Below, in pieces: positions 14,870 to 19,885 of a stretch of DNA of 64,000 nucleotides (its first letter is position 1; every line of letters begins with the position of its first letter). Location of the stretch: the NCBI GenBank assembly GCA_963667175.2, contig CAXXXF010000003.1, positions 448,001-512,000 of the forward strand. Reading direction: 5' to 3'. The notes below the pieces were generated by a model, which saw only the letters and a program-made list of their open reading frames with translations, was not told the origin of the DNA and ran no database searches. The translations under genes were made by a program, and so were the position numbers. This DNA comes from Candidatus Latescibacterota bacterium. GTDB taxonomy: Bacteria; Latescibacterota; UBA2968; GCA-2709665.

Positions 14870-17800
14870 ATGACATTCGTGATTTCCACGCCGACTTTTC
14901 AGGAACTCATTCTTCGCCTCGAGCGGTACTGGGCGGACCGGGGATGCGTCATCTGGCAGCCTTACAATGAAAAGGTGGGCGCCGGGACGATGAATCCCGC
15001 CACGGTCCTTCGAGTGCTCGGTCCCGAGTCCTGGAACGCGGCCTACGTTGAACCCAGCTTCCGTCCGGACGACGGACGATTCGGCGAGAACCCGAATCGG
15101 ATGCAGATGCACACGCAGTACCAGGTTGTTCTCAAGCCCGAGCCGGGCAACCCCCAGGAACTTTATCTGGATAGCCTGGAAGCGTTGGGCCTGGATCGGC
15201 GGCAGCACGACGTCCGTTTTGTGGAAGACAACTGGGCACAGCCCGCACTGGGCGCGTGGGGCCTGGGATGGGAGGTCTGGCTCGACGGACTGGAAATCAC
15301 CCAGTTCACCTATTTCCAGCAGGCCGGAGGCCTGCCCCTGGACCCGGTGCCGGTCGAAATCACCTACGGCATGGAACGTATCGCGATGTACGTGCAGGAC
15401 GTGAAGGAAGTCTGGCAGCTTCAATGGAACGAACAGGTCTCCTACGGCGACGTTCTCAGACAGCAGGAGGTGGAATACTGCAACTACGCGTTCCACTCCG
15501 CAAACGTGGAGCGCCTGCATACCATGTTCAAACTCTTCCATGACGAAGCCGAAGCCGCCATAGACCGGGGTCTTGTCATTCCCGCCCATGACTACGTGTT
15601 GCGGTGCTCTCACACCTTCAACCTGCTGGACACCCGGGGCGCCGTCGGCGTTACCGAGCGCGCGCGGTACTTCGCGCAGATCCGCGGCCTCGCCACACAG
15701 GTGGCCGAAGGGTTCGCCCGACAGCGCGAAGCATCCGGCCACCCTCTCAAAAGGAAGACCAGAGCCGCAACTGCGCCGAATTCGGGACCGGACGCTGAAC
15801 CGCTGGAGCGCGCCGACCTGCTCATGGAGATCGGATCCGAGGAACTACCGCCTCAAGACGTACGGTCGGGGATCGAACAGCTCGAAACGTCACTGCCCGA
15901 GCTTCTTCAGGAGCAGAGGCTGGGATATGAAGACGTCGATATCACCGGTACTCCCAGACGGCTTGTGGTCAACGTCAGGAATCTCGATGGCCGGCAGCCA
16001 GACCGCAAACGCGAAGTACGCGGACCGGCCGTGAAAGCCGCCTACGACGACGAAGGAAGCCCCACGCGCGCTCTCGAGGGGTTCTGTCGCGGCCAGGGCA
16101 TCTCTCCGGGATCGGTGGAACACAGGCAGGACGGCAAGGGCGTCGAATACGTCTACGCAATGCGTCACGAGCCCGGACGCCAAACACTGGAAATCCTGTC
16201 GGAACTCCTTCCCGGGCTGATTGACGGCCTGAACTTCCCGAAAACAATGCGTTGGGACTCCGACGGCTTCGCCTATCCCCGACCTCTGCGCTGGATTGTC
16301 GCCCTGTTTGGAAACCGGATTATCCCCTTCGCCCTCGCCCGGATCCGGAGTGGACGTACCAGCCATGGTCTGCGGTCCGCGGGCGATCCGCCCGTCCAAC
16401 TGAAGTCCGCCGCCGCCTATCGTCAAGAGATGAATGAAAGGGGACTGATCGTCGACCGCGACCGGCGAAGAGAGTCGATATGGAATCAGGTTCTCGAACA
16501 GGCGCGCGCGGTCGGCGGCAGCGTGAGGGAGGACCCCGAACTGCTCGATGAAGTCACGGACCTCGTCGAAGCGCCTTTCGCGCTTCGCGGCGGTTTCGAT
16601 GAAACCCACCTCGAACTGCCGCAGGAGGTCCTGATCAGCGTACTTGAGAAACACCAGCGCTGCTTCCCCATCGTACACCCGGAGACGGACCGGCTTCTGC
16701 CCTGGTTTGTCGCCGTATCCAACGGCAAGCCGGGGGATCCCGGCCCCGTCGTTCGCGGGAACGAAAGTGTCGTTCGCGCCAGATTTGCGGACGCCGCCTT
16801 CTTCTACAGGGAAGACGGCCGGAAAGCGCTGGAAGACTACCTGCCGCGTCTGGATACGCTCACCTACCAGGACGAACTCGGCTCCGTGAGGGACAAGAGC
16901 GCGCGAATCGAGCGGCTGATCGCTGCGGTCGCGTCCGATCTGGGACTGACAGAGAGCAGTACGAGCACGGCAGGGCGAGCGGCACGGCTTTGCAAAGCCG
17001 ATCTGGCCACCGGGATGGTCGTCGAGATGACGTCCCTTCAGGGCGTGATGGGCCGCTATTACGCGCTGGCTTCCGGTGAGTCCGACGCCGTTGCACACGC
17101 CATTGAAGAACACTACTTTCCGCGCTTTCCGGGCGATCTGCTGCCGGAGAGCGATTCCGGATTTGCGGTCTCCGTCGCCGACCGGCTGGACAGCCTGGCC
17201 GGCCTGTTCTGTGCCGGCATCAAGCCCCGGTCCACCGCCGACCCCTATGGGCTGAGGCGCGACGCGTTGGGCCTCCTCGCGCTGCTCATCGGGAAACGCT
17301 GCCACTTCTCCCTCAAGAAAGGCCTGGAGGCCGCGGCATCAAGGCTGCCTATCCGGATCGATGCGGATCGATTGAACGACGCATATACCTTCATCCTGCG
17401 CCGCCTTGGCGTACAACTGAAAGAGGAGGGCTTTCGCCACGACGTGGTCGAAGCGGCCCTTGGCGGCGGATGCGACGATCCTCTTGGCCTTCGCCACATT
17501 GTGGAAGGCCTCGATCGAATGGTCCGATCGGATCATTGGACGGAGACGCTTCATGCATACGCGCGCTGCAGGCGCATTGTCCGCGACCTGGATGAAGTCC
17601 ATCCCTTGAACGCAGACGCGGATCCGGCCCCCTCTTCCCGCAGCCTCTTTGAAAAGTGGCGGGACGCCCGGAACATGATGGATCGCTCCGATGCAAGGAT
17701 CGACACGTTGGAAAGCGTGCTTGCCGATCTGCGCGGACCCATTAACACCTTCTTCGACGAAGTCATGGTGATGGATGAAGATCCGGTCCTGCGGGCGGCA

Positions 17801-17875
17801 CGCCTGGCGCTGGTTCAGCGCATCGCCTCTCTCGCCGACGGCGTTGCGGACCTGAGCAGGCTGGAGGGGTTTTGA
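14870..17875 (+). CDS. glyQS: Glycine-tRNA ligase, fused alpha+beta
   Basis: Alpha motifs ([28 protein letters not shown]) and beta motifs ([25 protein letters not shown]) in one 1001-aa frame. Confidence 0.95.
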
Positions 17876-17939: not shown

Positions 17940-18521
17940 ATGCGTATAATTACGGGAAAACTCAAGGGCCGGACCATCCCCTTCGACGTCGGGAAAAACG
18001 GAAACGCGCGCGTTACGCCGGGGAGGGTGAAAGAGGCCGCGTTCACGATACTGGGCGCCAGACTCGACCAACTTCACTTTCTCGATCTCTTTTCCTGTTC
18101 CGGACAGATCGGGCTCGAGGCGTACAGCCGCGGCGCCAGGGTGCTTCTGAACGAGCCGGATCGTCGCCGGCGCCGCTTTATTTCAAAGCTGCTGACGGAC
18201 TGGGGTGTGGAGCGACAGATCCGACTGTTGGGTCAGCCGGCGGAGACAATTCTGACGTTACTGGAGTCGGAAAAGCGGCACTTTGACGTGATTTACCTGG
18301 ATCCGCCGTACCGGCTGCAAATGGACGGGGCTCCGTTCGCCGTCGCCATCCTTACCCGTCTGAGCGGCTCGATGCTCGTTGCTCCGTCGGGCCATGTCCT
18401 CATCCAACACGTTGCGGACCTGGAGTTGCCCGTCTCCGTCGGGCCCTTTGCGTTGCGGGTACGGAAGAACTACGGCGGAACGTCATTATCCTTCTACCGG
18501 AAGGTGGTCGGCGGCGGATAA
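17940..18521 (+). CDS. rsmD: 16S rRNA m2G966 methyltransferase RsmD
   Basis: MRIITGKLKGR, FLDLFSCSG, YLDPPY. Confidence 0.85.
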   Translation: MRIITGKLKGRTIPFDVGKNGNARVTPGRVKEAAFTILGARLDQLHFLDLFSCSGQIGLEAYSRGARVLLNEPDRRRRRFISKLLTDWGVERQIRLLGQPAETILTLLESEKRHFDVIYLDPPYRLQMDGAPFAVAILTRLSGSMLVAPSGHVLIQHVADLELPVSVGPFALRVRKNYGGTSLSFYRKVVGGG

Positions 18522-18610
18522 GCGTCAGTGCGAAATTTCCACTTGCCCTGGCACGCCAACGTATTTATTTTTTAATGCATCCAACCCCTGTTCGGAAAGG
18601 AGCCGACCCC

Positions 18611-18889
18611 ATGGATACAATGCACGAGTCCATCGAATTTCGCCCCCGGGGCCGAACGCTTGCCATGGGCGGCATCCCCTGGCTGCCGCGGATCACGGAC
18701 AAGGCCCGGGCCATGCTGCGGAACAATATCGGCGACTACGTCTACCCCTGACCCGCCGACCGGAAGTTCCTGGAGGAACTCGGCATATCGGCAGAAAAGT
18801 TCACCCGTATCGTCTCGGAGTGCAAACTGGACGAGGAAGTCATCGAACGCGTCCGCCCCTATTTCGAGAAGTCCCAAAGTCGCCGATAA
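18611..18889 (+). CDS. DUF5069-like small protein with in-frame TGA (codon 47), candidate selenoprotein
   Basis: AAGGAG RBS; MDTMHESIEFRPRGRTLAMGGIPWLPRITDKARAMLRNNIGDYVYP-TGA-PADRKFLEELGISAEKFTRIVSECKLDEEVIERVRPYFEKSQSRR-TAA; family-like sequence continues past the TGA, which occupies the YxCPxD Cys position. Confidence 0.8.
18755..18792 (+). promoter_or_regulatory. Putative bacterial SECIS hairpin
   Basis: GCCGA/TCGGC, CCG/CGG and AGTTCC/GGAACT stems, apical loop TGGA beginning after a 19-nt spacer from TGA (18749-18751). Confidence 0.7.
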
Positions 18890-18896
18890 AACAGGA

Positions 18897-18934
18897 AAGC
18901 CGCCACGCCGTGCGCGGCGGCTTCGCACTTTTTT
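18897..18934 (+). terminator. Rho-independent terminator
   Basis: AAGCCGCC/GGCGGCTT stem followed shortly by T6, just after the TAA at 18887-18889. Confidence 0.55.
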
Positions 18935-18952
18935 CTCCTGATCGGAACGCTA

Positions 18953-19885
18953 TCACGTCCCGCGTTCCGGCAATGCCTGTCTGGCCAGCGCCCTGATCTC
19001 GCCTGACCCCATCCGAAGCAATCCGTCGATCCCGATCACGTCGGCCGCGAAAAGTTGCGGACATTCCTGGGCAGCCAGATCGTATGCTTCTTCGACGTCG
19101 TAGTTGACCCCTCTGTACCTGTAGAGTTGGCCCAGGCTATCCAACTGACCACTGCGTCTCAGTGAATTCGTCACGCCCATCTTGAAGTAATATAACTGAC
19201 GGTCTCTCCTGTCTCCCCACCTCAAGGTATCCGGCTCCGGGACATCCGCCATCGATCGGTCGAGTTCCGCCTGAAAGGCGTCGATCTGGCCGTCGACCAT
19301 CTCCAGCAGCCCCCGGAGGACTTCTCTGCGAGCGGCCTCTCTCTCGTCCTGAAGCATGTCCTGAAGTACCAGCGCTGCCTTTCCGTAAAACACGTAACGT
19401 TCGCGTTTCCCCTCTCCGAACAGATCCATTTCAATGGCTTCGGCCTTTCGCGCCAGGGCCTCCAGGTCAAGGGTATCGTCGCCCACGCCGGCGTAGTCGT
19501 CGTCCCCGCGCGCGACCTGAATGCCGACCAGAAAGGCCTGCTCGATAATTTGCATCATATTCTCGGCCGGATCGAATATCCGCAACTTCCCGGACTCTTT
19601 TCTTTCCGTGCGTACCGGGTCGGCGCCGGGCATGAACCCCCGTCCGACCAGTACCTGCTCAGCTTCTATTCCCATGCGGCCCAGCAGTTCACGGAGCACG
19701 CCGCTCAACGTCGGTTGCCCCGCAGCCGGCAGGAATTCCCCCCGGTCTTCCACGACGAGGTCCGCCATCTCGGCCGCCAGCGTTTCGTCTCCCTCGGAAT
19801 CGCCATTCCTTCGCGTGTCCCGTGCGCGCGTCAGACGGAAGACAATCACGAATATCAACAGGACAGCCACGACGACGTAGACCAT
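18953..19885 (-). CDS. Hypothetical protein with N-terminal membrane anchor
   Basis: 310-aa ORF, GGGAG RBS, hydrophobic N-terminus, no recognised family. Confidence 0.7.
   Translation of the reverse strand: MVYVVVAVLLIFVIVFRLTRARDTRRNGDSEGDETLAAEMADLVVEDRGEFLPAAGQPTLSGVLRELLGRMGIEAEQVLVGRGFMPGADPVRTERKESGKLRIFDPAENMMQIIEQAFLVGIQVARGDDDYAGVGDDTLDLEALARKAEAIEMDLFGEGKRERYVFYGKAALVLQDMLQDEREAARREVLRGLLEMVDGQIDAFQAELDRSMADVPEPDTLRWGDRRDRQLYYFKMGVTNSLRRSGQLDSLGQLYRYRGVNYDVEEAYDLAAQECPQLFAADVIGIDGLLRMGSGEIRALARQALPERGT

What the first reader, a model, noticed from the sequence alone, without database searches (positions are those of the whole stretch)
18611..18889. Hidden candidate selenoprotein: DUF5069-like gene with UGA at the conserved Cys and a SECIS-like hairpin
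Seen: RBS AAGGAG, ATG 18611, 46 codons, TGA (18749-18751), 45 more sense codons, TAA, then a terminator. It reads GGIPWLPRITDKARAMLRNNIGDYVYP-U-PADRKFLEELGISAEKF. From recalled family knowledge, DUF5069 proteins read approximately L.RM.DKARA...G.IGEY.Y.CP.D..FL..LGI....F, so TGA falls on the conserved Cys. Directly 3' is a three-segment hairpin with a perfect AGTTCC/GGAACT upper stem and a G-containing loop (TGGA) after a 19-nt spacer, fitting bacterial SECIS geometry. The apparent errors elsewhere in this window are indels, not substitutions. Inference: a small standalone selenoprotein, implying redox or metal chemistry at this residue in a family of unknown function. I cannot confirm whether it is already catalogued.
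Basis: partly seen in the sequence, partly recalled or inferred. Interest (0 to 1): 0.9.

Follow-up and report, generated by a model that had tools for sequence, protein, structure and literature searches.

The report
Uncatalogued selenoprotein in the DUF5069 family
This small gene almost certainly makes a 92-residue protein containing the rare amino acid selenocysteine, is shared by two groups of uncultured bacteria, and is cut short at that codon in public gene catalogues.

Summary
ATG 18611 to TAA 18889 reads through TGA 18749-51 to give 92 aa. The product matches Pfam DUF5069 across the TGA.

- **Conservation:** the TGA is kept in 35 of 37 full-length orthologues among 41 related genomes; the other two have TGC.
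- **More distant homologues:** these, and the solved structure 3OMD, have Cys at this column.
- **Coding constraint:** the sequence 3' of the TGA is under purifying selection (pN/pS 0.35).
- **Hairpin:** the four codons forming the apical hairpin are the only 4 of 36 invariant-residue codon columns with a single codon.
- **Sec machinery:** the genome has selA, selB, tRNA-Sec and a Sec-containing selD.
- **Second phylum:** 80 of 80 Candidatus Poribacteria loci carry TGA at the same column. They share the hairpin core and have one compensatory base-pair swap.
- **Public gene calls:** several stop at the TGA.
- **Prior record:** a 2026 table of 119 prokaryotic selenoprotein families has no DUF5069 entry.

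The biochemical function is still only inferred. This is a new member of a known kind.

The parts
18597..18602 (+). Shine-Dalgarno AAGGAG, 8 nt before the start codon
   Evidence: Read directly. GAAAGGAG or AAGGAG is kept upstream of the ATG in the orthologous loci.
18611..18889 (+). Selenoprotein gene: 92 codons with Sec at codon 47, then TAA. Short form of DUF5069.
   Evidence: Translation. Pfam PF16798 at 56.5 bits, residues 12-82. 35 of 37 orthologues carry one in-frame TGA. pN/pS is 0.23 5' and 0.35 3' of the TGA. AF2 model pLDDT 90.8.
18749..18751 (+). UGA codon 47, read as selenocysteine
   Evidence: TGA in 28 of 30 and 38 of 58 fetched loci. TGC or TGT in the Cys forms. Aligned to Cys of 3omd_A.
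18755..18792 (+). SECIS-like three-segment hairpin inside the reading frame
   Evidence: MFE fold. The lower stems are only 68% paired across orthologues, with CG/UA/AU exchange at one pair.
18765..18780 (+). Apical stem-loop AGUUCC-UGGA-GGAACU, the likely SelB-binding part. The loop starts 19 nt after the UGA.
   Evidence: Codons 53-56 use one codon each in 43 unique Sec genes. The other 32 invariant-residue columns use 2-6 codons. 5 of 6 pairs never vary. Pair 20-35 is UA 70, AU 34, GU 5 across the two phyla.
18896..18924 (.). G+C-rich hairpin between the convergent genes; terminator-like
   Evidence: 13 pairs, 9 GC, called on the minus strand. On the plus strand a T6 run follows about 5 nt later.
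17940..18521 (+). Upstream neighbour: RsmD-like methyltransferase (PF03602). Synteny only.
   Evidence: Found upstream in most Latescibacterota Sec loci. Absent from the Poribacteria loci examined.

Best explanation
Window 18611-18889 is a genuine selenoprotein gene. UGA-47 is decoded as selenocysteine by SelB carrying Sec-tRNA(Sec). SelB is recruited by a SECIS hairpin that lies inside the coding sequence. Its apical part is GUUCC-UGGA-GGAAC, with the loop 19 nt after the UGA. The product is a 92-residue protein with no signal peptide apparent on inspection, so probably cytoplasmic. It is mostly helical and is a short form of the DUF5069 fold.

The selenol sits immediately before helix 2, after the conserved Y-x-Y-P turn and three residues before the near-invariant Asp50. 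I infer that it is the reactive centre. No second Cys is conserved. The most likely chemistry is therefore a single-selenol redox or nucleophilic step recycled by an external thiol.

Shown here: the recoding signals, their conservation, the Sec machinery and the Sec/Cys pairing. Inferred: Sec rather than another residue at UGA, and all of the chemistry.

The confidence value refers to 'genuine Sec-encoding gene with an in-frame SECIS'. My confidence in a redox or nucleophilic role for residue 47 is about 0.5.
For: **Sec/Cys pairing**
- The DUF5069 match spans the UGA.
- Codon 47 is TGA in 35 of 37 full-length orthologues in 41 related genomes of two families. It is TGC in the other two.
- 17 more distant homologues have TGC or TGT.
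- PDB 3omd_A has Cys at the column.

**Translation continues past the UGA**
- pN/pS is 0.348 for codons 48-88 and 0.379 for codons 58-88, against 0.231 for codons 1-46, over 903 pairs of 43 unique genes.

**RNA element**
- Of 36 invariant-residue degenerate codon columns, only codons 53-56 (TTC CTG GAG GAA) use a single codon.
- pS of the hairpin codons is 0.16, against 0.58-0.64 elsewhere.
- The two Cys orthologues inside the Sec clade carry synonymous changes that weaken the stem (GAG to GAA, AAG to AAA).
- Cys forms at about 69% identity read FLEK or FLER.

**Second phylum**
- 80 of 80 Poribacteria loci have TGA at the column and the same core.
- The next pair is swapped A-U to U-A through K to M/L/V and L to H changes. 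Covariation score 0.145 against 0.043 shuffled; 0 of 500 shuffles reach it.

**Machinery**
- selD (with its own TGA), selA, selB and tRNA-Sec next to selB are in the genome.
- selB and an adjacent tRNA-Sec are in 4 of 4 Poribacteria genomes checked.

**Geometry within this genome**
- The loops of selD, an Fdh-like gene and this gene start 17, 18 and 19 nt after the UGA.

**Structure**
- The AF2 model (pLDDT 90.8) puts residue 47 directly before helix 48-57.

**Assembly error**
- Contigs of three runs from two studies cover the TGA with no listed difference. One run may be the source sample.
Against: - There is no direct evidence of selenium in the protein, or of expression.
- The hairpin is not more stable than shuffled sequence (z 0.18).
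- Its loop UGGA differs from the GGUC and GGUCU loops of this genome's selD and Fdh-like SECIS.
- The apical stem hardly varies within a phylum. The covariation rests essentially on one swapped pair between two clades, which may be a single event.
- The lower stems are poorly conserved: 68% paired.
- No Rfam family matched. From memory, bacterial SECIS elements of this kind are not modelled in Rfam, so I expected no hit.
- For function: the column holds Ser in 29 of 172 sampled domains. That fits a nucleophile or a structural role as well as a redox one.
- Gene neighbours differ between lineages.
- Only one fold relative exists, and its function is unknown.
Confidence: 0.93

Rival explanations
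1. The TGA is a true stop. The gene is a pseudogene, or an assembly or sequencing error of a Cys codon.
For: Gene callers end the protein at ...DY[VI]YP in public sets (P0017, P0018, P0020, P0023, P0026, P0030). A long-form DUF5069 in G099 has a singleton TGA at the same column while its 5 orthologues have TGT or TGC. Isolated TGAs at this column therefore do occur.
Against: The TGA is kept in 43 unique gene sequences of one phylum and in 80 of 80 loci of another. There is purifying selection 3' of it. It is present in contigs of separate runs. No in-frame ATG, GTG or TTG follows it in the window.
Confidence: 0.02
2. UGA-47 is read through, but by something other than Sec-tRNA: near-cognate Trp or Cys, or a reassigned code.
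For: One public gene call (P0021) reads W at the column.
Against: - Orthologues L032 and L041 end this same gene with TGA, so TGA is a stop in these organisms.
- The column is Cys in relatives.
- A conserved hairpin at SECIS distance and the full Sec machinery are present.
- P0021 is most simply a call made under a TGA=W table.
Confidence: 0.03
3. It is a real selenoprotein, but residue 47 is a metal or metalloid ligand, or a selenium or sulfur carrier site, rather than a redox catalyst.
For: Only one chalcogen residue is conserved. The 2026 table lists several small bacterial selenoproteins as metal-binding. DUF5069 is fused to cupin domains in 2 of the 10 longer relatives scanned.
Against: No His- or Cys-rich motif lies nearby. 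Ser replaces Cys in 29 of 172 domains, and Ser is a poor soft-metal ligand.
Confidence: 0.2
4. It is a real selenoprotein in which DUF5069 is a small sensor or regulatory module: a redox switch that controls partner domains or proteins, not an enzyme.
For: DUF5069 occurs as an N-terminal or tandem module. It is fused to an AI-2E family transporter, a NuoF-like flavoprotein, cupins, a methyltransferase and a dienelactone hydrolase. It also occurs as triple repeats in which only the middle copy has Cys.
Against: From memory, known Sec residues are catalytic rather than regulatory; the 2026 review says only that most uncharacterised selenoproteins probably serve redox functions. The short form here stands alone, with changing neighbours.
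Confidence: 0.25

Closest known systems
DUF5069 (Pfam PF16798), Cys forms, including PDB 3OMD (Leptospirillum rubarum, 'unknown function')
   Same: Sequence family: 56.5 bits; E 1e-13 to 3omd_A with a profile. Same fold: TM 0.78 normalised to the query, rmsd 1.6 A over 78 columns. Cys of 3OMD aligns to U47.
   Different: Sec replaces Cys. Only profile positions 4-74 of 133 are matched, so this short form (92 aa) lacks the C-terminal third. The coding sequence carries a SECIS.
Bacterial selenoprotein genes with an in-frame SECIS directly 3' of the UGA (fdhF and selD type)
   Same: A UGA aligned to Cys in homologues. A hairpin whose apical loop starts 17-19 nt after the UGA, as in this genome's selD and Fdh-like genes. 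G in the loop. Dependence on selA, selB, selC and selD.
   Different: The loop is UGGA, not GGUC or GGUCU. The protein family is absent from the 119 families tabulated in PMC13188914. It matches no NCBIfam model.
Other small, function-unknown bacterial selenoproteins listed in PMC13188914 Table 1 (DUF- or 'hypothetical'-type families)
   Same: A small selenoprotein of unknown function, like the DUF- and 'hypothetical'-type entries of the table, and found by the Sec/Cys-pair approach the review describes. That such families are often truncated in databases is stated for one of them in a 2022 preprint abstract; the truncated calls here are.
   Different: No CxxU, UxxC or CU motif; the local motif is Y-x-Y-P-U-[PG]-x-D. 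The fold is helical, not thioredoxin-like. The table gives no entry with PF16798.

Membership tests
DUF5069 (PF16798) | Score above Pfam's gathering cut-off | tested here: met
   56.5 bits against 27, E 4.2e-15.
DUF5069 (PF16798) | Full-length domain (133 profile positions) | tested here: not met
   Only positions 4-74 are matched; the protein ends at 92 aa. Many other short forms of 86-99 aa exist, so this is a short subfamily rather than a fragment.
DUF5069 (PF16798) | Same fold as the solved member | tested here: met
   Foldseek hit to 3omd_A: E 5.7e-4, TM 0.78 (query), rmsd 1.6 A. Model pLDDT 90.8.
Bacterial selenoprotein | In-frame UGA aligned to Cys in homologues (Sec/Cys pair) | tested here: met
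Bacterial selenoprotein | Protein-level conservation on both sides of the UGA | tested here: met
   pN/pS 0.231 5' and 0.348 3' of the UGA. The Pfam match spans it.
Bacterial selenoprotein | SECIS hairpin just 3' of the UGA, with the apical loop at a suitable distance and a G in the loop. The numeric criteria (16-37 nt; G in the first two loop positions) are recalled from the bSECISearch literature, not from a call. | tested here: met
   Loop UGGA starts 19 nt after the UGA. Synonymous sites are frozen. There is a compensatory pair between phyla. bSECISearch itself was not available.
Bacterial selenoprotein | Genome encodes SelA, SelB, SelD and tRNA-Sec | tested here: met
   all over the curated cut-offs. 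tRNA-Sec (73.4 bits) lies next to selB. The tRNA-Sec model also passes its cut-off in 5 of 14 control genomes, so the adjacency to selB matters.
Bacterial selenoprotein | Selenium shown in the polypeptide | not testable with these tools
   Needs 75Se labelling or mass spectrometry.
Any of the 119 catalogued prokaryotic selenoprotein families | Listed domain identifier or matching NCBIfam model | tested here: not met
   PF16798 occurs 0 times in PMC13188914. The two places where the string '5069' occurs are inside accession numbers. Table 1 was read in full. NCBIfam release 20.0 gives 0 families at E up to 1.

The most novel reading that the evidence does not exclude
DUF5069 is a new, non-thioredoxin, helical redox or nucleophile module. 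Its catalytic residue is the Cys/Sec at the N-terminus of helix 2.

The conserved F-L-E-E motif, written as TTC CTG GAG GAA, is self-complementary. That may have pre-adapted the family to gain a SECIS. If so, the Sec forms of the two phyla whose near-identical sequences turn up in sponge metagenomes arose convergently or by transfer. In Poribacteria the Sec and Cys forms alternate at one locus, upstream of pheA.
Probability: 0.3. Interest if true: 0.7.

Novelty: new member of a known kind. Interest (0 to 1): 0.6.

Why it matters
- **Function of a DUF.** The finding assigns a probable reactive residue to a family of unknown function that already has a crystal structure (3OMD). That makes the function directly testable with the Cys orthologue.
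- **Selenoprotein inventory.** It adds a family to the prokaryotic inventory from two little-studied candidate phyla, Latescibacterota and Poribacteria.
- **Annotation.** Current gene catalogues systematically truncate it at codon 46, often with spurious N-terminal extensions. Annotation pipelines would need a new model.
- **Evolution of recoding.** The frozen FLEE codons, and the amino-acid changes that keep an RNA pair, show clearly how a SECIS constrains protein sequence.

Tried and rejected
- **Hairpin energy.** Not significant on its own (z 0.18), so I used conservation instead.
- **Rfam.** An E-value scan of 18500-19000 gave only chance-level hits (E 1.4-6.7, far below gathering scores).
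- **Neighbours as a guide to function.** They differ by lineage.
  - Latescibacterota Sec loci: glyQS and rsmD upstream, an ABC transporter opposite.
  - Poribacteria: UPF0182 upstream and pheA downstream.
  - Some Cys lineages: an FNR-like protein (PF00175) plus a GT2 glycosyltransferase.
  - Chloroflexota: FabF and a MaoC dehydratase upstream.
  - No common partner emerged.
- **Fold search.** Only 3omd_A matched with E up to 0.001. The other 28 matches have E of 2.7 or more.
- **Homodimer.** A test of a natural Cys orthologue alignment (2 copies) returned 'no answer' (score 0.03, mark 0.42). It is neither for nor against binding.
- **Single origin of the Sec forms.**
  - The free quick tree separates the Poribacteria and Latescibacterota Sec clades, each with 98 support.
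  - The AU test does not reject holding them together with the six nested Cys rows (p 0.599; the constrained tree is 3.73 lnL better).
  - The group was named after seeing the tree, so the origin is unresolved.
  - Rows dropped: one search kept 24 of 70 unique Poribacteria proteins. One search kept 12 of 70 of those and 17 of 34 unique Latescibacterota Sec proteins, and left out L115, L213, P0028, P0029 and P0046.
- **Other truncated calls.** P0163 led to six loci: five Cys forms and one more Poribacteria Sec form. Its own source was not found. P0126 was not followed.
- **RNA evidence.** Nothing can be said about expression.
- **Literature.**
  - 'DUF5069': 0 papers.
  - 'selenoprotein' with 'Latescibacteria': 3 papers, 2 listed, none relevant by title or abstract.
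  - 'Poribacteria' with 'selenocysteine': 3 papers, none about this family by title or abstract.
  - The '3OMD' search hit only 3-O-methyldopa papers.
  - Of PMC13188914 I read Table 1 and the surrounding text of section 7 (parts 1 and 2 of 3) and found passages.
  - The papers it cites were not read: Deng et al. 2026, Xiao and Zhang 2025, Haft and Tolstoy 2025. Their supplementary candidate lists may contain this family, and supplements are closed.

Full report
**What is in the sequence.** The coordinates are exact.
- AAGGAG lies at 18597-18602.
- ATG is at 18611. 46 sense codons follow, then TGA at 18749-18751, 45 more sense codons, and TAA at 18887-18889.
- The ORF listing starts the frame at an earlier ATG (18575). 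The conserved GAAAGGAG 8 nt before ATG 18611, and the common MD... N-termini of the orthologues, favour 18611.
- No ATG, GTG or TTG follows the TGA in frame in the window. A separate downstream gene is therefore unlikely.
- The read-through product (92 aa) matches Pfam DUF5069 at 56.5 bits (cut-off 27) over residues 12-82, that is, across the TGA.
- It matches no NCBIfam model.

**Is the organism able to read UGA as Sec?** Yes. All of the following exceed the curated cut-offs:
- selD, itself with one in-frame TGA, on C13;
- selA and selB, adjacent on C6;
- a tRNA-Sec (73.4 bits) next to selB.

The tRNA-Sec model also passes its cut-off in 5 of 14 control genomes. The position beside selB is what makes this hit convincing. 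Record titles of near-identical loci name the lineage Candidatus Latescibacterota.

**Is the TGA conserved, and what replaces it?**
- Among 41 genomes of the same order (two families), 37 have a full-length orthologue. 35 of these carry exactly one in-frame TGA and 2 carry none.
- In the 30 loci fetched, codon 47 is TGA in 28 and TGC in 2.
- A scan of one genome per species found 58 loci. 38 have TGA, 19 have TGC or TGT, and one distant hit has CGC.
- All TGA loci fall in one Latescibacterota clade (99/90 support; 34 unique Sec and 2 Cys proteins) nested among Cys forms.
- The solved homologue 3omd_A reads YTYNCPLDQ at the site.
- In 172 domain instances from a search of 1.84 billion representatives, the column is C 127, S 29 and other 16.
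- Two of those 'other' cases are W, in the context YIYPWGADKK. These are most simply TGA=W gene calls of Sec forms.

**Is the part after the TGA translated?** Over 903 pairs of 43 unique Sec-form genes:

| Codons | pN/pS |
|---|---|
| 1-46 | 0.231 |
| 48-88 | 0.348 |
| 58-88 | 0.379 |

This is purifying selection on the protein.

**Is the hairpin a functional RNA element?**
- By energy it is ordinary (z 0.18).
- By conservation it is not. Of 36 codon columns with an invariant, degenerate amino acid, 32 use 2-6 codons.
- Only four columns use a single codon. They are the contiguous codons 53-56, TTC CTG GAG GAA, which form the apical stem-loop.
- Synonymous divergence there is 0.16, against 0.58-0.64 elsewhere.
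- Five of the six apical pairs never vary. One varies AU to GU. The lower stems are only 68% paired.
- The two Cys orthologues inside the Sec clade have synonymous changes that weaken the stem.
- More distant Cys forms do not even keep FLEEL; they read FLREM, WLQKT or LLQAL.
- In this genome the SECIS loops of selD, an Fdh-like gene and this gene begin 17, 18 and 19 nt after the UGA. The loop letters differ: GGUC, GGUCU and UGGA.

**A second phylum.**
- Eleven public gene calls end exactly before the column.
- One of them, P0117, led to 120 relatives, of which the best 80 were kept. Nearly all carry Candidatus Poribacteria in their record titles; a few are labelled only 'uncultured bacterium'.
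- 80 of 80 have TGA after YIYP. 39 more codons follow (42 in one locus), then TAA or TAG.
- The retrieval patterns lie 5' of the TGA, so the loci were not selected on it.
- They encode (M/L/V)-F-L-E-E-H and have the same core GTTCC-TGGA-GGAAC.
- The pair below the core is U-A in these loci and A-U in Latescibacterota.
- On 111 distinct rows that pair counts UA 70, AU 34, GU 5 and other 2. The covariation score is 0.145 against 0.043 in shuffles (0 of 500 as high), and it far exceeds the slid controls.
- This may be one evolutionary event. It is achieved through amino-acid changes on both sides, which is hard to explain without an RNA constraint.
- Two one-sided changes keep wobble pairs (L134, L148).
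- 4 of 4 Poribacteria genomes checked have selB with an adjacent tRNA-Sec.
- In Poribacteria both the Sec forms and the Cys forms lie upstream of pheA. The two states therefore alternate at one locus.
- Whether Sec arose once is unresolved.

**Artefact?** Contigs of three public runs from two studies cover the TGA with no listed difference. Near-identical sequence occurs in sponge metagenome runs. One of these runs may be the source sample. The cross-genome conservation is the stronger argument.

**Structure and function.**
- AlphaFold2 on a 108-row alignment gives pLDDT 90.8 and pTM 0.81. There is a short beta hairpin and helices at 25-36, 48-57, 61-70 and 74-91. Residue 47 sits directly before helix 2.
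- Only 3OMD, of unknown function, shares the fold.
- Across 108 sequences K31 is invariant. P12, R13, R27, D30, R33, A34, D50 and D74 are nearly invariant.
- No second Cys is conserved.
- Of 10 longer relatives scanned, 7 carry DUF5069. Six of these pair it with another domain:
  - an AI-2E family transporter;
  - a NuoF-like flavoprotein;
  - a cupin (two proteins);
  - a methyltransferase;
  - a dienelactone hydrolase.
- The window's own genome has a triple-repeat protein in which only the middle repeat has Cys.
- From this I infer a reactive selenol, redox-active or nucleophilic. A helix N-terminus placement is common for reactive thiols (established knowledge, not tested here). I could not measure 3D contacts because no coordinates are returned.

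**Known or new?**
- 'DUF5069' occurs in no paper of the searchable library.
- The 2026 inventory of 119 prokaryotic selenoprotein families, whose Table 1 I read in full, has no PF16798 entry.
- NCBIfam has no model for it.
- Public proteins are 'hypothetical' or truncated.
- Limits on this claim:
  - supplements are closed;
  - look-ups cannot find U-bearing records;
- I therefore call it a new member of a known kind, with the caveat that it may sit unnoticed in a supplementary candidate list.

**Verdict.** My confidence that this is a Sec-encoding gene is 0.93. Confidence in its chemistry is low. Interest is 0.6: solid and useful, but new bacterial selenoprotein families are found regularly.

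Noticed in passing
L128-L207 and L212 (Candidatus Poribacteria MAGs): A second clade of short-DUF5069 selenoprotein genes. 80 of 80 loci, plus L212, have TGA at the same column and the same hairpin core. They lie between UPF0182 and pheA. Cys forms occupy the same position in other Poribacteria (L098, L100, L102, L106, L110, L114).
   Followed up: yes
G000:C13:163286-164209 (-) = L001; G000:C16:77163-77900 (+) = L119: The genome's selD is itself a selenoprotein (CG-U-AAK). An Fdh-like molybdopterin enzyme also has one in-frame TGA. Both have GGUC-type SECIS loops 17-18 nt after the UGA.
   Followed up: partly
L116/L122 (G099:C322:26811-27215): A long-form (135 aa) DUF5069 has TGA at the same column (YVYN-TGA-SLD). 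Its 5 orthologues in related genera have TGT or TGC. This singleton could be a young Sec form, a nonsense mutation or an error.
   Followed up: partly
G000:C4:287560-288807 (-) = L024-L026: A 435-aa open frame holds three tandem DUF5069 domains. Only the middle one has Cys at the column (YVYNCPID). The outer two read YGDDSGLD and YAEESGLD. Triple and double repeats are common across the phylum.
   Followed up: partly
G091:C1:5573015-5573323: A DUF5069 match with both a TGA and a TAA inside it; probably a pseudogene.
   Followed up: no
window 14870-17875 (+): A single 1001-aa frame fuses the glycyl-tRNA synthetase alpha and beta subunits (PF02091 + PF02092 + DALR).
   Followed up: no
P0017, P0018, P0020, P0023, P0026, P0030, P0117, P0126, P0144, P0156, P0163; P0021: Public gene calls of this family stop at the Sec codon and often start at spurious upstream codons. 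P0021 reads W there, presumably a TGA=W call. P0126 and P0163 may mark further Sec lineages that I could not trace to DNA.
   Followed up: partly
window 18896-18924: One G+C-rich hairpin lies between the convergent selenoprotein gene and the 310-aa gene on the minus strand (18953-19885, no Pfam match). It has T-runs on both sides and is probably a bidirectional terminator.
   Followed up: partly
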